A stretch of 64,000 nt of DNA from a virus, in the IMG/VR virus record IMGVR_UViG_3300027917_000041, positions 1 to 64,000 of that record; one strand, written 5' to 3'. The notes under the pieces are model-generated. The model saw only the letters and a list, made by a program, of their open reading frames with translations, was not told where the DNA came from and did no database searches. A program made the position numbers and the translations under genes. This document shows positions 23,911 to 61,674 of this stretch, piece by piece. The stretch's first letter is position 1, and each line of letters starts with the position of its first letter.

Positions 23911-23983
23911 GGCATACCCAGCTGGACTTGAACCAGCACCGAGGGGTTTGGAGTCCCTAATGCTACCATTACACCACGGATAT
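23911..23983 (-). tRNA. tRNA-Trp(CCA)
   Basis: cloverleaf, loop CTCCAAA, G73, ends CC-TA. Confidence 0.9.
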
Positions 23984-23988
23984 GTATA

Positions 23989-24062
23989 GGAGCGTGTGAC
24001 AGGAGTCGCACCTGCACCGTATGGTTGGAAGCCACCCATGCTACTGTTAACACCACACACGC
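23989..24062 (-). tRNA. tRNA-Gly(TCC)
   Basis: loop CTTCCAA, U73; T-loop TGCGACT. Confidence 0.85.
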
Positions 24063-24067
24063 ACTTA

Positions 24068-24157
24068 GGCGGAGAATACAGGGATCGAACCTGTACATCG
24101 GAGTTACCGACATCACCGTTTTCAAGACGGATAAGCACGCCAGCCTTGCGACTCTCC
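24068..24157 (-). tRNA. tRNA-Ser(TGA)
   Basis: loop CTTGAAA, long variable arm, G73. Confidence 0.85.
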
Positions 24158-24160
24158 GTA

Positions 24161-24247
24161 GGCGGAAGGTAGAGGGATCGAACCTCTGCATCCGGTTGGA
24201 TGGTTATGGTTTAGCAAACCAGCGCATTACCACTCTGCCAACCTTCC
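24161..24247 (-). tRNA. tRNA-Ser(GCT)
   Basis: loop TTGCTAA, long variable arm. Confidence 0.9.
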
Positions 24248-24251
24248 AATA

Positions 24252-24337
24252 GGTCGCTATGGCAGGATTCGAACCTGCATGGACACATGCCCACCATGGT
24301 TTGAGCATGGCGTGTATACCAATTCCACCACACAGCG
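24252..24337 (-). tRNA. tRNA-Leu(CAA)
   Basis: loop CTCAAAC, long variable arm, A73. Confidence 0.9.
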
Positions 24338-24340
24338 ATA

Positions 24341-24416
24341 GGTGCTGAACCCTAGACTCGAACTAGGAATCTTCCGCGTATCAGACGGATGCGTTAACCA
24401 GTTACGCTAGTCCAGC
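24341..24416 (-). tRNA. tRNA-Ile(GAT)
   Basis: loop CTGATAC. Confidence 0.9.
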
Positions 24417-24420
24417 ATTA

Positions 24421-24494
24421 GGTGACTCTACAGGGGATTGAACCCTGATTCTCAGCTTGAGGGGCTGATGTCCTATCCATTAGACGATAGAGCC
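24421..24494 (-). tRNA. tRNA-Glu(CTC)
   Basis: loop CCCTCAA (C33). Confidence 0.85.
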
Positions 24495-24499
24495 ATATA

Positions 24500-24583
24500 G
24501 GTGCTCTAGAGAGGAGTCGAACCTCTACGCCCGAAGGCACTTGGGTTTAAGTCAAGCGTGTCTGCCAATTCCACCACAAGAGC
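24500..24583 (-). tRNA. tRNA-Leu(TAA)
   Basis: loop CTTAAAC, long variable arm. Confidence 0.9.
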
Positions 24584-24589
24584 ATTTTA

Positions 24590-24774
24590 GACCACCCGTA
24601 GGCAGGATTCTGTTCTATGCTATCATTTATCTTTGCACCAACCCGACTATTATAGCGTAGCTCACCCGCTAAGTCTGTTTGGCTTGCTACCTAGGTAGTG
24701 CAAACGGCTTATGCCTCCTACCGTGAGCTAAGTAGTCCTGACCTTCCTCTGTTTCCAGCGATAGCTCGATGGTC
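24590..24774 (-). ncRNA. rnpB: miniature RNase P RNA (catalytic domain only)
   Basis: CR-I GAGGAAGGUCAGGA pairs with CR-V ACAGAAUCCUGCCU (P4 with bulged U); CR-IV AGAUAAAU; P1, P2, P3, P5, P6, P7, P15, P16 and P17 all pair. Confidence 0.88.
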
Positions 24775-24777
24775 TTA

Positions 24778-24851
24778 GGAGTCCTAGGTGGGAGTCGAAC
24801 CCACTCTACAGCGTTTTGCAGACGCTTTCCTAGCCATTCGGAATCTAGGAC
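24778..24851 (-). tRNA. tRNA-Cys(GCA)
   Basis: loop CTGCAAA, U73. Confidence 0.9.
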
Positions 24852-24856
24852 ATTTA

Positions 24857-24929
24857 GGCTGAGGGTACTGGATTTGCACCAATGATACTTGGTTCAGAGC
24901 CAAGGGGTTTACTGTTAGCCTAACCCTCA
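24857..24929 (-). tRNA. tRNA-Gln(CTG)
   Basis: U1-A72, loop CTCTGAA; T-loop TGCAAAT. Confidence 0.85.
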
Positions 24930-24934
24930 GTATA

Positions 24935-25010
24935 GGCGGTTACTACGAGATTCGAACTCGCATATTCTTCCTTGACAGGGAAGCCCATTAACCAATTATG
25001 GTAAGCAACC
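24935..25010 (-). tRNA. tRNA-Asp(GTC)
   Basis: loop CTGTCAA, G73. Confidence 0.9.
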
Positions 25011-25014
25011 ATTA

Positions 25015-25091
25015 TGGAGCTGAATACTGGATTCGAACCAGTACTTCTTGGTTACAAAGCAAGCGTGCTTGACCATTAACACTAATCCAGC
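25015..25091 (-). tRNA. tRNA-Thr(TGT), the only one with encoded CCA
   Basis: loop TTTGTAA; ends TCCA. Confidence 0.9.
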
Positions 25092-25096
25092 TTGTA

Positions 25097-25170
25097 GGTG
25101 ACATCTGACGGATTCGAACCGACACTTCCCTGATTGAAAGTCAGGTGTCCTTCCAGTAGACGAAGATGCC
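25097..25170 (-). tRNA. tRNA-Glu(TTC)
   Basis: loop CTTTCAA. Confidence 0.9.
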
Positions 25171-25174
25171 ATAC

Positions 25175-25218
25175 CGCAGGGCTTTCGCCCTGCACCCTGC
25201 CACGAATGGTCAGGGGTG
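25175..25218 (-). ncRNA. small two-hairpin structured element
   Basis: CACCCCUGACCA-UUCG-UGGCAGGGUG followed by CAGGGC-GAAA-GCCCUG. Confidence 0.45.
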
Positions 25219-25221
25219 ATA

Positions 25222-25297
25222 GGTGCAGGATACAGGACTCGAACCTGTGTTCTCTTTTTTGTAAGAAAAGCGATTTCACCAGCTAATCTAATCCTGC
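25222..25297 (-). tRNA. tRNA-Val(TAC)
   Basis: loop CTTACAA. Confidence 0.9.
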
Positions 25298-25302
25298 AAA
25301 TT

Positions 25303-25348
25303 GGTCTTGTTTTTGTAGCTTCTGGTACAAGACCGTAAACCTAGCTAC
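25303..25348 (-). ncRNA. predicted H-type pseudoknot RNA
   Basis: GUAGCU/AGCUAC and GGUCUUGU/ACAAGACC stems interleaved. Confidence 0.55.
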
Positions 25349-25352
25349 CGCA

Positions 25353-25427
25353 GGTGGACAAGACGAGATTCGAACTCGTATTACTTCTGTGCAAGAGAAG
25401 TGTGTTCCCAATTGTCACTACTCGCCC
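25353..25427 (-). tRNA. tRNA-Ala(TGC)
   Basis: G3-U70, loop CTTGCAC; ends CC-TG. Confidence 0.9.
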
Positions 25428-25429
25428 AA

Positions 25430-25505
25430 GGTACTCCGTGGAGGATTTGAACCTCCATCTCGTAGGTTAAGAGCCTAGTGGGTTAGCCGTTAACCCCAAC
25501 GGAGT
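25430..25505 (-). tRNA. tRNA-Lys(CTT)
   Basis: loop CTCTTAA; ends CC-TT. Confidence 0.9.
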
Positions 25506-25513
25506 ATGTACAT

Positions 25514-25591
25514 CCAGTCTACGTTAATCGGAACCTCGTCCGATGCTTATATGCGTGTCCAGCGTAGACCAGTGAGAGCCGCTAAGCTCCC
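25514..25591 (-). ncRNA. unidentified ~80-nt structured RNA
   Basis: GGGAGC/GCUCUC hairpin, then CUGGUCUACG/CGUAGACUGG stem enclosing an AUCGGA/UCCGAU hairpin. Confidence 0.5.
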
Positions 25592-25595
25592 TATA

Positions 25596-25678
25596 GGTGC
25601 GCCCGGAGAGAGTCGAACTCCCACAGCTTATAGCGGGTGGTTTACAGCCACTTGGACTCGCCATTGTCCAGCAGACGC
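25596..25678 (-). tRNA. tRNA-Tyr(GTA)
   Basis: loop CTGTAAA, variable arm. Confidence 0.9.
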
Positions 25679-25682
25679 ATTA

Positions 25683-25757
25683 GGTAGCGGAGGACGGAGT
25701 TGAACCGACTTGGGACAGTTTATGAGACTGCCGAGTTTACCGAAACTCTACTCCGCA
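25683..25757 (-). tRNA. tRNA-Met(CAT), initiator-like acceptor end
   Basis: loop CTCATAA; U1:U72 mismatch. Confidence 0.85.
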
Positions 25758-25762
25758 ATATA

Positions 25763-25840
25763 GGTACTGGCACTTGGATTCGAACCAAGACCTTACAGTT
25801 TAAAAGACTGATGTGCTAGACCGTTAAACACCATACCAGT
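25763..25840 (-). tRNA. tRNA-Lys(TTT)
   Basis: loop CTTTTAA. Confidence 0.9.
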
Positions 25841-25847
25841 ATATTTA

Positions 25848-25920
25848 GGTGTAGACCCCCGGAGTCGAACCGGGCTTGTCCGGGCTTCAACCGGATGCAT
25901 AACCACTCTGCCAAGTCCAC
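25848..25920 (-). tRNA. tRNA-Phe(GAA)
   Basis: loop TTGAAGC. Confidence 0.9.
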
Positions 25921-25925
25921 ATTTA

Positions 25926-26000
25926 GGTACTCGCACTAGGATTCGAACCTAGACTCAACCGTATATAAGACGGACGTGTTCACCATTACACTATGCGAGT
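25926..26000 (-). tRNA. tRNA-Ile(TAT)
   Basis: loop CTTATAT. Confidence 0.85.
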
Positions 26001-26005
26001 ATGTA

Positions 26006-26079
26006 GGCTGAGGGTGAAGGGGTCGAACCTCCATTTCAGGCTTCAAAGACCTTAGTCTTTACCATTAGACGAACCCTCA
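26006..26079 (-). tRNA. tRNA-Gln(TTG)
   Basis: U1-A72, loop CTTTGAA, G73. Confidence 0.9.
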
Positions 26080-26087
26080 ATATTGAC

Positions 26088-26116
26088 ATTATAACACAAA
26101 AATTGATATTTGTCAA
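26088..26116 (-). promoter_or_regulatory. internal promoter of the tRNA array
   Basis: TTGACA-17-TATAAT, 8 nt upstream of tRNA-Gln(TTG). Confidence 0.85.
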
Positions 26117-26129
26117 GTACCAATTTCTA

Positions 26130-26203
26130 GGAGCATCTAGCAGGGGTCGAACCTGCACTACTTGGTTCGTAGCCAAGTGGTCTATCCATTAGCCTATAGA
26201 TGC
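26130..26203 (-). tRNA. tRNA-Arg(ACG)
   Basis: loop CTACGAA, A20. Confidence 0.9.
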
Positions 26204-26207
26204 ATTA

Positions 26208-26281
26208 GGCGCAACCAAGAGGACTCGAACCTCTTCCATGGGCTTAGAACACCCTTATGCGATCCACTACACCATGGTTGC
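26208..26281 (-). tRNA. tRNA-Arg(TCT)
   Basis: loop GTTCTAA, A20, G73. Confidence 0.85.
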
Positions 26282-26419
26282 AATTTTATGTAAGATACGC
26301 CAAAATAGGTTATCTCGTTTCCAGATAGAAGTATGATCTTCTCTAAATCCCCATAGAAAATACCAGTCTATCTTAATACCACCTTTCTTGCGTTTGCTTA
26401 CCTTACCAATTTTTGTCAT
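26267..26419 (-). CDS. small basic/aromatic ORF inside tRNA array (50 aa)
   Basis: MTKIGKVSKRKKGGIKIDWYFLWGF...; ATG directly follows tRNA-Asn CC-T. Confidence 0.4.
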   Translation of the reverse strand: MTKIGKVSKRKKGGIKIDWYFLWGFREDHTSIWKRDNLFWRILHKIATMV

Positions 26420-26420
26420 A

Positions 26421-26494
26421 GGCACTCAGGGGCGGGGTCGAACCACCGTCACCACGGTTAACAGCCGTGTGCATTACCATTATGCTACCCGAGT
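26421..26494 (-). tRNA. tRNA-Asn(GTT)
   Basis: loop CTGTTAA, G73. Confidence 0.9.
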
Positions 26495-26499
26495 GTATA

Positions 26500-26575
26500 G
26501 GGGTAATCGGTGAGTCTCGAACTCACTATAACTGTGTTCACAGCACAGCGTCGCACCAGTTTGACTTCGATCACC
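26500..26575 (-). tRNA. tRNA-His(GTG)
   Basis: G-1:C73, loop CTGTGAA. Confidence 0.9.
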
Positions 26576-26580
26576 ATATA

Positions 26581-26664
26581 GGTGCTTCTCGTGGGAGTCG
26601 AACCCACATGAGTCTCCTCACTAGTTTCTAAGACTAGAGCGTATACCAATTCCGCCAGAGAAGC
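26581..26664 (-). tRNA. tRNA-Leu(TAG)
   Basis: loop CTTAGAA, long variable arm. Confidence 0.9.
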
Positions 26665-26667
26665 ATA

Positions 26668-26740
26668 GGTCAAGGTGAGAGGAATCGAACCTCTTCCGCA
26701 GAGTCCCAAACTCCGTGTGCGGCCATTACACCACACCCTG
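26668..26740 (-). tRNA. tRNA-Pro(TGG)
   Basis: C1-G72, loop TTTGGGA. Confidence 0.9.
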
Positions 26741-59401: not shown

Positions 59402-60676
59402 ATGCAGTATGAAATCAACTCGTTCAATTATTTTGATACGTTAGTACGCTTTTTAAGAGCGCAACCTATCAACTTGGCTGGTATAGCTGCTCCTAGCGGT
59501 GGTCAAGGTGGCGGTTCTGGTTATATTGGATATCTACCACAAACTAGAGTAGCCTACGACGAAACAGAGGCGGCTACCTTAGATACAGCAGTAAGTGGTA
59601 GTCTATTAGATAACCTAAATCACATTCGTTATACTATTACTACACTTTCAGGTATCGCAGCTGGTGGTGTTATCATTGAAGAAGATGGTGTAGTTGTTGC
59701 TAGTGGTGTAACTGTAATAGACTTTATCAACGATTTTGAAGTAGTAGCTGCAACTCCTACTTCCGTAACAGTGGCACAGGTAGCAGCTTCCGGTGTAGTA
59801 GCTCTATCAGGTGTACACAATGAGGACTTATCATCACAGATCGATGGTGCTACACAGCACTTTGATCTAAATAATGTATTCCATCCCGGCTATCTACGAG
59901 TATATTACAATGGTCTAAGACAAGACGGCAACTTTACAGCAGACGGTGATTTTGGTGGTTTTACTCTAGACTTTACACCAGAAACAGGGGATGCCCTAGT
60001 AGTAGACTATGACGTAGCTACGTCTGGTGGTAGTGGTACTTACGGACACACTCACTCACAGTATGTAACACTGTCTTTCTTAGAGTCCAATTATTATACG
60101 GACGATGATGTAAATGATATTCTAGATAATAAAGCAGATAGTGTACACTCCCACGTAGAAGCAGAAATAACTGACTTGGAACACAATGCTACTGCCCTTC
60201 AAGGTGTGCCTGTATCTGGTATTATCCCTGCCGATGAATCTGTATTACAATATGACGCTGATACCTTAGTATGGTCGCCTACTTCGTTGTCGGGTGTGCT
60301 AGCAAGAACAATACACCAGCAAACAATCTTCTCTATTGAAGGTACTAATATGGCAGCTGCCGACCAAGGTGTGAAGCCTCTAAGAATGTACGTACATGAT
60401 GTAGGCTTTGATTGCCAATTAGAAGAAGTCTTTTGTGCGGTTAATACAGCCCCCGGTGCAGCTGATTTGCATATTGATATACTAAAAAATGGTTCAACTA
60501 TATTCAATGCACCGGAATATCTAACATTACCAGTAGGTAGTGGTTATGCAGCTAGAGGCGATTTTAATGATGCTCAACTAGCAAAGGATGATTATTTACA
60601 ATTCGAGTTAGTACAAGGTGATAGTACAGCGTCGGATTTGACAGTACACGTAAGATTCAAGTGGGAGGCTACATAA
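59402..60676 (+). CDS. tail fibre/minor virion protein
   Basis: L.VY.NG..Q module, H.H repeats, L.YD.....W.P, D.LKNG..IF. Confidence 0.65.
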   Translation: MQYEINSFNYFDTLVRFLRAQPINLAGIAAPSGGQGGGSGYIGYLPQTRVAYDETEAATLDTAVSGSLLDNLNHIRYTITTLSGIAAGGVIIEEDGVVVASGVTVIDFINDFEVVAATPTSVTVAQVAASGVVALSGVHNEDLSSQIDGATQHFDLNNVFHPGYLRVYYNGLRQDGNFTADGDFGGFTLDFTPETGDALVVDYDVATSGGSGTYGHTHSQYVTLSFLESNYYTDDDVNDILDNKADSVHSHVEAEITDLEHNATALQGVPVSGIIPADESVLQYDADTLVWSPTSLSGVLARTIHQQTIFSIEGTNMAAADQGVKPLRMYVHDVGFDCQLEEVFCAVNTAPGAADLHIDILKNGSTIFNAPEYLTLPVGSGYAARGDFNDAQLAKDDYLQFELVQGDSTASDLTVHVRFKWEAT

Positions 60677-61674
60677 TGGCTTGTTTATTATTAGAGAGTT
60701 TTGATACCTATGCAACGGGTAATTATACTGGAAAGTGGCAATCAATGGCTGGTACTATCGGAGCTTATGGTAGAGAAGGTACTAATGGTTTGACACATAC
60801 TACAGAATCATTTATACAAAAAACCATTAGCAATAAACAAACGCTTATTGTTGGTATTGCTATTAAATTAGATACTACTAAGGATTGGAACTTGCTTGAA
60901 TTTAGGGACGGCACTACAGTACAACTAGGCTTGTACACAGACGCATCTAACCAGATTATAATCAAAAGAGGTACTACAACATTAGAAAATACTAGCTATG
61001 CTATTCCTACAAATACTTGGATATATCTAGAATTCAAAGGCACAATTGATAACAGTGCAGGTTCTTATGAACTTAGAATTAATGGTGTTACAGAAGCTAG
61101 CGACTCGGGTATAGATACACAACAAACAGGTAATGCCTATGCTACATCAGTAGTATTTAGATTTAGTGGTATTGGTGCATCTAACCACTACCTTGATGAT
61201 ATCTATATCTTTGATGATGAAGGTTCTTTCTGCAATAACTTTGTAGGCGATGTTTACGTAGAGGCTATATTTCCAAATGCTGATGGGTATACAAATACTT
61301 GGGTAGCTTTTCCGGGCAGTGGTGATAACTATGAAGAAGTAGATGAAACCGATCCAGACAGTGATACAACATTCGTAGCTACATCCGGTGTAGGTTTTAT
61401 AGACAGCTATGCATTTAGTAACTTAGTAAGTACTAGTGGTAGTATTTATACAGTACAAGTAAATCTATGGGCTAGAAAAGATGATGCTGGAAGTAGAACA
61501 TTAAACGCCATAACACGTCCTACTACAGTGACTTATTCTGGTGCTGAACCGATAAGCTTAGGTAATACTTATCAATACAGCTTACATCACTTTGACTATA
61601 ATCCAGAAACAGCAGGTAACTGGACAATAGCACAGATCAATGCAGCTGAATTTGGTATAAAGGAAGAAGCATAA
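60676..61674 (+). CDS. virion protein with lectin-like beta-sandwich
   Basis: W.Y.E.K, INGV, Y.DD.Y, P.T...WT...IN....G. Confidence 0.6.
   Translation: MACLLLESFDTYATGNYTGKWQSMAGTIGAYGREGTNGLTHTTESFIQKTISNKQTLIVGIAIKLDTTKDWNLLEFRDGTTVQLGLYTDASNQIIIKRGTTTLENTSYAIPTNTWIYLEFKGTIDNSAGSYELRINGVTEASDSGIDTQQTGNAYATSVVFRFSGIGASNHYLDDIYIFDDEGSFCNNFVGDVYVEAIFPNADGYTNTWVAFPGSGDNYEEVDETDPDSDTTFVATSGVGFIDSYAFSNLVSTSGSIYTVQVNLWARKDDAGSRTLNAITRPTTVTYSGAEPISLGNTYQYSLHHFDYNPETAGNWTIAQINAAEFGIKEEA

What the first reader, a model, noticed from the sequence alone, without database searches (positions are those of the whole stretch)
24590..24774. Phage-encoded miniature RNase P ribozyme (~185 nt, no S-domain) embedded in the tRNA array
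Seen (minus strand, folded by hand): P1 GACCAUC/GGUGGUC; P2 GCUAUCG/UGAUAGC; P3 CUG-GAAA-CAG; P4 AGG(U)CAGGA/UCCUGCCU with the bulged U and compensatory changes relative to the usual AAGUCCGGG/CCCGGCUU; P5 CUAC/GUAG; P6 pseudoknot UAGCUCAC/GUGAGCUA; P7 GGUAG/CUACC; P15 GCC/GGU with L15 AAACA/GGGUU; P16 GACU/AGUC; P17 UAGCG/CGCUA; CR-IV AGAUAAAU and CR-V ACAGAA. P7 closes only 19 nt (one GGC-AUAA-GCC hairpin), so P9-P14 with CR-II/III are absent, and P18 is absent. Established: bacterial RNase P RNAs are usually about twice this long, the C-domain holds the active site, and archaeal type T RNAs are the known natural S-domain-reduced form. Inference: the phage carries its own stripped-down 5'-tRNA-processing ribozyme, co-transcribed with its substrates. 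It lies immediately after the tRNA-Cys trailer and 6 nt before tRNA-Leu(TAA), so tRNA processing would release it. It may borrow the host RnpA protein or act as a decoy for it.
Basis: partly seen in the sequence, partly recalled or inferred. Interest (0 to 1): 0.95.

Follow-up and report, generated by a model that had tools for sequence, protein, structure and literature searches.

The report
Miniature RNase P ribozyme gene in phage
A marine-sediment phage carries, inside its own cluster of 28 tRNA genes, a 187-base stripped-down copy of RNase P RNA (the ribozyme that trims new tRNAs) that keeps the whole catalytic half but has lost the half that reads the tRNA elbow, and no paper describing such viral ribozymes turned up.

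Summary
Window 24589-24775 (minus strand, 187 nt), between tRNA-Cys and tRNA-Leu(UAA), aligns end to end with Rfam's bacterial class A RNase P model. The score is 52.9 bits, below the gathering score of 100, with E 7e-16. The S-domain is cut to 19 nt and P18 is absent.

It belongs to a large family. Pattern scans and a covariance model of my own gave 130 distinct relatives of 181-293 nt in viral, metagenome and MAG contigs. On 67 distinct sequences 92.9% of proposed pairs form, against 64.2% in shuffles and at most 42% when slid. The P4 pseudoknot, which was not in my model, pairs in 99.4% of cells, with changes on both sides in 7 of 8 pairs. The bulged U of P4 and the L15 GGU were fixed by no search pattern and are at least 97% conserved.

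The best reading is a phage-borne catalytic RNase P RNA, co-transcribed with its substrates and probably working with the host's RnpA protein. No RnpA is encoded in this record. One of 30 other carrier records encodes one. Activity is untested.

Eight literature searches found no description. This scan has met the same family before on other DNA, in at least 54 genomes.

The parts
24589..24775 (-). Whole miniature RNase P RNA gene (187 nt, P1 to P1)
   Evidence: RF00010 end-to-end match at 52.9 bits. My model R1 scores 185.7 bits over 24589-24775.
24768..24775 (-). P1 5' strand (RNA 1-8), pairs with 24589-24596
   Evidence: In the family all 8 of 8 pairs show changes on both sides, 84.1% of cells paired.
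24589..24596 (-). P1 3' strand (RNA 180-187)
24759..24765 (-). P2 5' strand (RNA 11-17), pairs with 24619-24625
   Evidence: All 7 of 7 pairs form in 33 of 35 homologues, with many different sequences. 99.1% of cells paired, 5 of 7 pairs changed on both sides.
24749..24758 (-). P3 hairpin (RNA 18-27, 3 bp with a GAAA loop)
   Evidence: P3 length varies from 8 to 32 nt in the family.
24736..24749 (-). CR-I and P4 5' strand (RNA 27-40), with bulged U35 at 24741
   Evidence: Aligned to the CR-I consensus of RF00010. U35 and C36 are at least 97% conserved in 67 sequences.
24600..24614 (-). CR-V (ACAGAA) and P4 3' strand (RNA 162-176)
   Evidence: P4 is 99.4% paired, with 7 of 8 pairs changed on both sides, although P4 was not part of the model that made the alignment.
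24723..24730 (-). P6 pseudoknot 5' strand (RNA 46-53), pairs with 24658-24665 in the P17 loop
   Evidence: 90.9% of cells paired, 5 of 7 pairs changed on both sides.
24694..24722 (-). P7 (RNA 54-58/78-82) enclosing the 19-nt stub (59-77) that stands where the S-domain should be
   Evidence: P7 is 98.5% paired. The stub is 18-109 nt in 67 relatives. G58, A60, G61 and C78 are at least 97% conserved.
24637..24683 (-). P15-L15-P16-P17 arm (RNA 93-139), with the L15 GGU at 24641-24643
   Evidence: Aligned to the P15-P17 part of RF00010. P16 is 93-99% paired and P15 83%. G133, G134 and U135 are at least 97% conserved and no search pattern fixed them.
24624..24632 (-). CR-IV (AGAUAAAUG, RNA 144-152) directly after P15, with no P18
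   Evidence: Only 5 nt lie between P15 and CR-IV. The gap is 5-7 nt in 62 of 67 relatives and 30-36 nt (P18-sized) in 5 of 67.
24778..24851 (-). Upstream tRNA-Cys(GCA). Its CC tail ends 2 nt before P1.
24500..24583 (-). Downstream tRNA-Leu(UAA), starting 5 nt after P1. RNase P cleavage at its 5' end would form the ribozyme's 3' end.
26088..26116 (-). Nearest upstream promoter-like site (12 of 12 match, TG-extended). Likely start of the transcript that carries the ribozyme.
   Evidence: No promoter-like or terminator-like site on the minus strand lies between it and the ribozyme.

Best explanation
This is a phage-encoded, miniaturised bacterial-type (class A) RNase P RNA: the catalytic C-domain alone. 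It keeps P1-P7, the P4 and P6 pseudoknots, the P15-P17 arm with the L15 GGU, and CR-I, CR-IV and CR-V. A 19-nt stub replaces the S-domain, and P18 is absent.

Shown: homology, structure, conservation, and position inside a same-strand tRNA array behind a consensus promoter.

Inferred: the RNA is transcribed with the tRNAs by host RNA polymerase. It is freed by 3' processing of tRNA-Cys and by RNase P cleavage at tRNA-Leu. It folds into the RNase P active site and cuts the 5' leaders of the phage's closely packed pre-tRNAs. It would recognise them only through contacts made by the C-domain: the acceptor stem, base -1, and the encoded C74-C75 pairing with L15. It most likely uses the host's RnpA protein as cofactor. 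The likely benefit is extra or independent tRNA-maturation capacity when the phage floods the cell with 28 pre-tRNAs, or when host RNA is being shut down.
For: Homology: RF00010 aligns end to end, E 7e-16, with deletions exactly at the S-domain and P18.

Family: 33 viral contigs matched one pattern. A second pattern matched 50, of which 47 are confirmed by model R1 and 3 are one chance coding sequence. In all there are 130 distinct sequences.

Structure, on a plain MAFFT alignment of 21 sequences: 89.0% of cells paired against 62.9% shuffled and at most 40.4% slid. On 67 distinct sequences: 92.9% against 64.2% (0 of 500 shuffles reach it) and at most 42.0% slid. P4 is 99.4% paired and P6 90.9%, and neither was in the model that made the alignment.

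Conserved substrate-contact and active-site nucleotides: the bulged U35 with C36, the L15 GGU (133-135), A92 and A98 are at least 97% conserved and were fixed by no search pattern.

Population level: near-identical relatives in two other samples differ at 8 of 401 positions. All 8 lie in variable parts of the ribozyme. They include a G-C to A-U compensatory change in P17 and a C-G to U-G change in the stub hairpin.

Context: 40 of 67 relatives have a tRNA gene in the DNA held, 22 within 100 nt and 12 within 10 nt. In 39 of those 40 the tRNAs are on the ribozyme's strand.

Substrates fit C-domain recognition: 28 of 28 tRNAs encode CC after the discriminator, and base -1 is U in 21 of 28.

Extra copy rather than the cell's own gene: one MAG holds both a full-length RNase P RNA (179 bits) and a mini beside 15 tRNAs.

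Protein partner: one carrier phage encodes its own RnpA (PF00825, 50.7 bits).

Established knowledge: a bacterial C-domain cleaves pre-tRNA with and without RnpA, though more weakly (PMC4919922, passages). The E. coli C-domain needs a P6-like contact but not P18 (PMC5839562, abstract). That matches what these phage RNAs keep and lose.
Against: No activity, expression or protein-binding data exist for this RNA. The score is below Rfam's gathering threshold (52.9 against 100).

The record encodes no RnpA. 29 of 30 other carrier records lack one, including 8 of 8 that are at least 90% complete. A cofactor must therefore come from a host that is unknown.

Loss of the S-domain lowers rate and affinity in engineered ribozymes (PMC4919922).

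The CR-I, CR-IV, CR-V and P6-3' motifs were fixed by my search patterns, so their invariance is partly by construction.

The tRNAs here end in CCU, not CCA (27 of 28). Most tRNAs next to other minis encode no CC at all (205 of 283). The CC-L15 argument is therefore not general.
Confidence: 0.65

Rival explanations
1. RnpA sponge or regulator. The RNA keeps the protein-binding C-domain so as to capture the host's RnpA. It would throttle or redirect host RNase P rather than cleave anything itself.
For: The record has no RnpA of its own. The retained regions (P2-P3, CR-IV, CR-V, P15) include what I recall to be the RnpA-binding surface; this is recalled, not tested. The missing S-domain predicts weak catalysis.
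Against: A decoy does not need the L15 GGU, the bulged U of P4 or J5/15. Those contact substrate and metal ions (recalled), and they are at least 97% conserved. A phage that delivers 28 pre-tRNAs needs more RNase P activity, not less. One carrier phage brings its own RnpA, which suits a working enzyme.
Confidence: 0.12
2. Active ribozyme with a changed or narrowed substrate range. Without the elbow-reading S-domain it would cut hairpin-like or non-tRNA targets (phage or host mRNAs, other small RNAs of the array), or work with an unknown phage protein instead of RnpA.
For: The S-domain sets tRNA specificity. The stub keeps invariant G58, A60 and G61 of unknown role. The array holds other stable non-tRNA spacers. 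27 of 67 relatives have no tRNA in the DNA held; two huge-phage copies, for example, have none within 3 kb.
Against: 22 of 67 sit within 100 nt of a tRNA gene, co-oriented. The tRNAs here carry U at -1 and CC, the classical C-domain determinants. No conserved neighbouring protein gene was seen.
Confidence: 0.15
3. Decaying remnant of a captured host rnpB gene with no present function.
For: It is short, sub-threshold for Rfam, and lacks two universally conserved regions (CR-II and CR-III).
Against: 130 distinct copies keep the same architecture. 47 of 54 pairs show compensatory changes. Close relatives differ only at variable or compensating positions. The deletions are precise and domain-wise.
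Confidence: 0.02

Closest known systems
Bacterial class A RNase P RNA (rnpB, M1 RNA; Rfam RF00010)
   Same: Same C-domain architecture and conserved regions CR-I, CR-IV and CR-V. Same P4 with a bulged U, same P6 pseudoknot, and same P15-P17 arm with the L15 GGU.
   Different: 187 nt instead of the typical 340-420 nt (size from PMC4919922). The S-domain (P8-P14, CR-II, CR-III) is replaced by a 19-nt stub and P18 is absent. It is carried by a phage inside a tRNA array. It scores 52.9 bits against a gathering score of 100. True full-length RNAs score only 19-21 bits on my mini model.
Archaeal minimal RNase P RNA of Pyrobaculum (type T in Lai et al. 2010; called type P in PMC4919922)
   Same: A natural RNase P RNA that keeps the catalytic domain and lacks nearly the whole specificity domain (PMC4919922, passage).
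   Different: That RNA is the sole cellular enzyme of an archaeon and works with archaeal proteins. This one is of bacterial class A type (P6, L15 GGU), viral, and an extra copy. Rfam's best match here is the bacterial model. One lower-scoring match from the same clan was hidden by the tool, so I did not see its name.
Engineered C-domain ribozymes (E. coli 'CP RPR'; B. subtilis C-domain, the latter recalled)
   Same: A C-domain alone cleaves substrates with and without the protein. It depends on a P6-like contact and does not need P18 once the S-domain is gone (PMC5839562, abstract). The phage RNA keeps P6 and drops P18.
   Different: Those are laboratory deletions with reduced efficiency. This is a natural, conserved, widespread gene.
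Theta (HDV-like) ribozymes next to phage tRNAs (PMC10879173)
   Same: Ribozymes encoded beside tRNA genes of tailed phages and linked to tRNA maturation (search listing and start of abstract only).
   Different: Those are small self-cleaving ribozymes unrelated to RNase P. They act in cis, not as trans-acting multiple-turnover enzymes.

Membership tests
Bacterial class A RNase P RNA (RF00010) | CR-I with the P4 5' strand and bulged U | tested here: met
   Aligned to the model's CR-I. U35 is at least 97% conserved.
Bacterial class A RNase P RNA (RF00010) | Long-range P4 helix supported by covariation | tested here: met
   99.4% paired, 7 of 8 pairs changed on both sides, and P4 was not in the aligning model. 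98.8% paired on the MAFFT alignment.
Bacterial class A RNase P RNA (RF00010) | CR-IV and CR-V joining regions | tested here: met
   Both align to the model. Their invariance in the family is partly by construction of my search patterns.
Bacterial class A RNase P RNA (RF00010) | P6 pseudoknot and P15-P17 arm with the L15 GGU (type A hallmarks) | tested here: met
   P6 is 90.9% paired with 5 of 7 pairs changed on both sides. P16 is 93-99% paired and P15 83%. The GGU is at least 97% conserved.
Bacterial class A RNase P RNA (RF00010) | Specificity domain with CR-II and CR-III (P8-P14) | tested here: not met
   Only 19 nt lie between the P7 strands. 140 model positions are covered by 31 nt.
Bacterial class A RNase P RNA (RF00010) | P18 | tested here: not met
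   The 24-position model block is filled by 0 nt. A P18-sized insert is present in only 5 of 67 relatives.
Bacterial class A RNase P RNA (RF00010) | Rfam gathering score (100 bits) | tested here: not met
   52.9 bits, and absent from the gathering run. 0 of 11 minis in 20 MAG loci reached it. Other minis score 67-83 bits.
Bacterial class A RNase P RNA (RF00010) | Site-specific 5' cleavage of pre-tRNA; binding of RnpA | not testable with these tools
   Needs biochemistry. No RNA sequencing run is listed for this DNA.
Phage miniature RNase P RNA family (my model R1; no Rfam entry) | Full-length match to the mini model | tested here: met
   185.7 bits, model 1-197, but the window is a seed sequence of R1. 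Non-seed members score 70-183 bits. Full-length bacterial RNAs score 19-21 bits.
Phage miniature RNase P RNA family (my model R1; no Rfam entry) | Located in viral DNA, typically beside co-oriented tRNA genes | tested here: met
   TerL and portal genes in the window. tRNAs lie 2 nt upstream and 5 nt downstream. In the family, 22 of 67 are within 100 nt of a tRNA.
Archaeal minimal RNase P RNA (Pyrobaculum type) | Archaeal-type C-domain, sole RNase P RNA of the organism | tested here: not met
   The best Rfam match is the bacterial class A model, and the element lies in a phage. It works like this type (no S-domain) but is not a member.

The most novel reading that the evidence does not exclude
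The phage carries a private, minimal tRNA-maturation system. The 187-nt ribozyme would act on the phage's own pre-tRNAs through C-domain contacts alone: U at -1 and the uniformly encoded N73-CC-U-A tails pairing with L15. It would do so either without any protein or by taking over the host's RnpA. Phage tRNA supply would then continue, and host tRNA maturation would be starved, while host RNA or tRNAs are under attack. That would make it the smallest natural trans-acting RNase P ribozyme, the first viral one, and a natural test of how little RNA is needed for RNase P catalysis.
Probability: 0.2. Interest if true: 0.92.

Novelty: new variant of a known kind. Interest (0 to 1): 0.82.

Why it matters
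RNase P RNA is regarded as a strictly cellular or organellar housekeeping ribozyme. I found no review or search result that mentions a viral copy. I also read passages of the 2024 and 2016 reviews.

A natural, widespread bacterial-type RNase P RNA of 181-293 nt with no specificity domain has three consequences.
- It shows what evolution keeps when the enzyme is pared down: P6 and L15 are kept, and P18 and the S-domain are lost.
- It offers a compact ribozyme for structural and engineering work.
- It adds a processing enzyme to the known phage kit of tRNA arrays, which bears on how phages keep translating under tRNA-targeting defences.

Routine annotation misses the family because every mini I scored against RF00010 (the window and three others) falls below the gathering score, and 0 of 11 more reached it in a gathering run.

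Tried and rejected
**Single-sequence fold.** z was -1.97. This is uninformative because the two pseudoknots cannot be folded.

**Rfam on the huge-phage homologue L001.** There was no RNase P match even at E up to 10, so Rfam cannot be used to collect the family. I built model R1 instead.

**Expression.** No RNA holder is listed for this DNA, so nothing can be said about expression. DNA holders with large shares are marine sediment, seawater and estuary runs, two of which may be the source sample.

**Contigs laid from four runs.** These gave only strain variants. They show no RNA ends.

**Is encoded CC a general partner of the minis?** Rejected. It holds in this window (28 of 28). Beside other minis, only 78 of 283 tRNAs carry CCA, 205 carry no CC, and none carries CCT.

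**Phage-encoded cofactors.** There is no PF00825 (RnpA) and no PF01743 (CCA-adding enzyme head domain) in the 72,450-nt record. The record is about 80% complete, so absence is not proven.

**Is the window's RNA the smallest?** Not quite. It is tied for shortest of 67, but two complete metagenome copies of 181 nt exist.

**tRNA-like insert in L020.** It has a T-arm-like hairpin, but ARAGORN calls no tRNA.

**Pattern hits L085, L095 and L104.** These are one coding sequence and are chance matches. R1 does not hit them.

**Other spacers of the array.** No Rfam family matches at E up to 0.1.

Full report
**What is there.** The window belongs to a 72,450-nt IMG/VR virus record estimated to be about 80% complete. 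It encodes a terminase large subunit and a portal protein. On the minus strand it encodes a replication module of RNase H, family A DNA polymerase, RecA, DnaB helicase and a PD-(D/E)XK nuclease. At the head of that module lie 28 tRNA genes, all on the minus strand, at 23911-26740. The only large gap in the lower half of the array, between tRNA-Cys (24778-24851) and tRNA-Leu(UAA) (24500-24583), holds the feature.

**Check of the observation.** In my numbering, RNA position p equals window 24776 - p.
- P1 1-8/180-187
- P2 11-17/151-157
- P3 18-20/25-27
- P4 32-40/169-176, with U35 bulged
- P5 41-44/86-89
- P6 46-53/111-118
- P7 54-58/78-82
- P15 93-96/136-139
- P16 101-104/128-131
- P17 105-109/119-123

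Only 19 nt lie between the P7 strands, and 5 nt lie between P15 and CR-IV.

A routine Rfam run at gathering thresholds lists only tRNAs (24 matches). A sensitive run on 24570-24790 gives one match: RF00010, bacterial RNase P class A, model positions 1-367 end to end, 52.9 bits (gathering 100), E 7.1e-16 for that search. In that alignment CR-I, J5/15, the P15-P17 arm, CR-IV and CR-V all line up. The S-domain blocks (15+15+110 model positions) are filled by 15+13+3 nt, and the P18 block (24 positions) by none. The thermodynamic fold alone is not telling (z -1.97), as expected for an RNA with two pseudoknots.

**It is a family, not a one-off.** A blastn search of GenBank phages found three records, all uncultured huge phages of 595-735 kb. 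Their copies have different P4 sequences that still pair, and they have no tRNA within 3 kb. Rfam does not see one of them at all.

I then scanned public collections with two motif patterns.
- Pattern 1 (P6-3', CR-IV, CR-V) matched 33 viral contigs and 30 genome or MAG contigs.
- Pattern 2 (CR-I, CR-IV, CR-V at compact spacing) matched 50 viral contigs, 32 of them new.

A covariance model, R1, was built from 21 compact members.
- It scores 73 matches in 76 sources. The 3 misses are one coding sequence that matched by chance.
- It confirms 13 of the 30 genome or MAG loci at 89.6 bits or more; two further weak partial matches (L060, 23.6 bits; L045, 21 bits, the latter a true full-length RNase P RNA) I do not count as minis.
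- It confirms 76 of the 80 metagenome loci.

Pooled, there are 130 distinct sequences. Complete ones run from 181 to 293 nt, with a median of 200 over all 130 (two cut copies included). Some metagenome contigs are the sources of IMG/VR contigs, so the collections overlap.

The window's 187 nt is tied for shortest of the first 67, and a handful of the 130 are shorter. R1 gives only 19-21-bit partial hits on true full-length RNase P RNAs, so the minis form a distinct length class.

**Structure is under selection.** On the plain MAFFT alignment of 21 sequences, 89.0% of cells in my 55 proposed pairs form standard pairs. Column shuffles give 62.9 +/- 0.9% (0 of 500 reach the observed value), and sliding the partners gives at most 40.4%.

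On the 67 distinct sequences aligned to R1, the figures are 92.9% against 64.2 +/- 0.5% and at most 42.0%. Changes on both sides occur in 47 of 54 pairs. That alignment is fitted to the nested helices, so it leans towards them. The two pseudoknots were not in the model, yet they hold:
- P4: 99.4% paired, 7 of 8 pairs with double changes
- P6: 90.9% paired, 5 of 7 pairs with double changes

P2 alone shows 7 of 7 pairs in 33 of 35 homologues, with many different sequences.

Thirty-six positions are at least 97% conserved. CR-IV and CR-V, and for part of the sample CR-I and the P6 3' strand, were fixed by my patterns, so their conservation does not count. The following were fixed by no pattern: the bulged U35 with C36, the L15 G133-G134-U135, A92 in J5/15, A98, G140, and G58, A60, G61 and C78 around the stub.

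At population level, contigs from two other samples carry a close variant of this phage, with 8 differences in 401 nt. All 8 lie inside the ribozyme's variable parts.
- G109-C119 becomes A-U, a compensatory change in P17.
- C63-G68 becomes U-G.
- Two changes fall in the stub loop.
- Two changes fall in the 3' junction of the stub.
- One change falls at a P17 pair that is not conserved in the family.

The flanking tRNAs are unchanged in those contigs.

**Context.** Four perfect 12-of-12 sigma-70-type promoters with a TG extension lie on the minus strand. The one at 26116-26088 is the nearest upstream of the ribozyme, and no minus-strand promoter-like or terminator-like site intervenes. The ribozyme is therefore most simply part of a polycistronic tRNA transcript made by host polymerase. 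Its ends would be set by tRNA processing, since tRNAs lie 2 nt upstream and 5 nt downstream.

Across the family, 40 of 67 have a tRNA gene in the DNA held. 22 lie within 100 nt of one and 12 within 10 nt. In 39 of the 40 the tRNAs share the ribozyme's strand. The other 27 have none in the DNA held, and several of those loci are short.

One MAG holds both a full-length class A RNase P RNA (179 bits) and a mini (67 bits) that sits directly before 15 tRNA genes. The mini is thus an extra, mobile copy, not the cell's own rnpB.

**How it probably works.** The following comes from a review (PMC4919922, passages read).
- The bacterial C-domain holds the active site (P4, CR-I, CR-IV, CR-V).
- It can cleave pre-tRNA with or without RnpA, though with lower rate and affinity.
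- The S-domain contacts the D and T loops.
- RnpA binds the 5' leader.

The abstract of PMC5839562 adds that an E. coli C-domain ribozyme depends on a P6-like contact, and that P18 no longer matters once the S-domain is gone. The phage RNAs keep P6, with covariation, and have lost P18 in 62 of 67 cases. That is the pattern expected of a working C-domain enzyme.

The substrates in this window carry the determinants that the C-domain reads. All 28 tRNAs encode CC after the discriminator, and 21 of 28 have U at -1. That L15 pairs with C74-C75 and that U(-1) is preferred are recalled from the RNase P literature and were not tested here.

I therefore read the element as a catalytic RNA subunit that joins the host's RnpA. 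The record encodes no RnpA. Only 1 of 30 other carrier records does, and none of the 8 that are at least 90% complete. That single case is a 97-residue PF00825 protein (50.7 bits) next to an HD-domain gene in a 171-kb record. It shows that at least one phage pairs the mini RNA with the canonical protein.

The steps from transcription to catalysis are inferred. I put 0.65 on this reading. The alternatives are:
- an RnpA sponge, 0.12
- a ribozyme with altered substrates or partner, 0.15
- a dead relic, 0.02

**Comparison with what is known.** The element is homologous to bacterial class A RNase P RNA, but it fails three of that family's defining features: the S-domain with CR-II and CR-III, P18, and the gathering score. 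It works like the Pyrobaculum minimal RNA (catalytic domain only), but it is bacterial in type and viral in location. Rfam 15 has no dedicated family, since only RF00010 and one hidden clan member matched.

Eight full-text searches found no description of a phage- or virus-encoded RNase P RNA. I also read passages of the 2024 RNase P history review, the 2016 diversity review, and the abstract of the 2018 C-domain paper. The nearest published case is the theta ribozymes beside phage tRNAs (listing and start of abstract only), which are unrelated self-cleavers. Subscription journals and supplementary files were not searchable.

**Relation to earlier notes of this scan.** The same stretch was noted twice. 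The scan has already met this family on other DNA, with 62 notes in at least 54 genomes and several follow-ups reaching the same verdict. I did not rely on them. The alignment, the model, the counts and the literature searches here are my own. Two neighbouring notes gave leads that I tested: the CCU tails and the promoters.

**Verdict.** It is a new variant of a known kind: a natural, viral, S-domain-less bacterial-type RNase P RNA. It is one of the shortest members of a large family that is apparently undescribed. Activity and the protein partner remain to be shown.

Noticed in passing
window 23911-26740 (-): All 28 tRNA genes encode CC after the discriminator. 27 continue with T (25 read CCTA) and only tRNA-Thr has CCA. 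None of 283 tRNAs beside other mini RNase P genes has CCT: 78 have CCA and 205 have no CC. CCU would keep the CC for L15 pairing while avoiding a complete CCA. The reason is unknown, and no CCA-adding enzyme domain is in the record.
   Followed up: partly
window 23911-26740 (-): The base just before the tRNA 5' end is T in 21 of 28 genes (4 C, 2 A, 1 G). Single-stranded linkers between neighbouring tRNAs are only 2-7 nt after the CC.
   Followed up: partly
L074 1501-1794 (+), same virus record as L035: One carrier phage record (170,678 nt) encodes a 97-residue RnpA homologue (PF00825, 50.7 bits against a cut-off of 22.3) beside an HD_4-domain gene and unknowns. This is not the bacterial rpmH-rnpA-yidC setting (recalled). 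It was the only hit in 30 carrier records.
   Followed up: partly
window 25171-25221, 25506-25595, 26282-26420 (-): Three non-tRNA spacers in the array fold stably (z -4.2, -3.1 and -2.4) and match no Rfam family at E up to 0.1. They may be further small RNAs released by tRNA processing.
   Followed up: partly
window 27083-27055, 26931-26903, 26116-26088, 23898-23870 (-): Four perfect 12-of-12 sigma-70 promoter matches, all with 17-nt spacers and a TG extension. They point to strong early transcription by unmodified host polymerase.
   Followed up: no
L020 800-1044 (-): In this relative the 76-77 nt inserted between the P7 strands (counted differently) contain a hairpin with a canonical-looking T-loop sequence. 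ARAGORN calls no tRNA there.
   Followed up: partly
L052 2318-2764 and 3423-3902 (+): A MAG contig with a mini RNase P RNA cut off at its 5' end also carries two GOLLD RNA matches (182 and 155 bits) and tRNAs.
   Followed up: no
L071 (G001:C117:60008-60371 and 60619-61042, -): Two tandem sub-threshold RF00010 matches of 364 and 424 nt (90.2 and 65.8 bits), with no tRNA nearby. My mini model does not hit them. They may be another kind of reduced or divergent RNase P-like RNA.
   Followed up: no
L012 5228-5441, L013 125-338 (+): A divergent subtype (74.5-74.9 bits on R1) in which the P6 3' strand motif lies before the P15 region instead of in the P17 loop.
   Followed up: no
L001 3220-3270 (+): The 735-kb huge-phage copy stands alone. 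It has no tRNA within 3 kb and is followed by a terminator-like hairpin with a T run.
   Followed up: no
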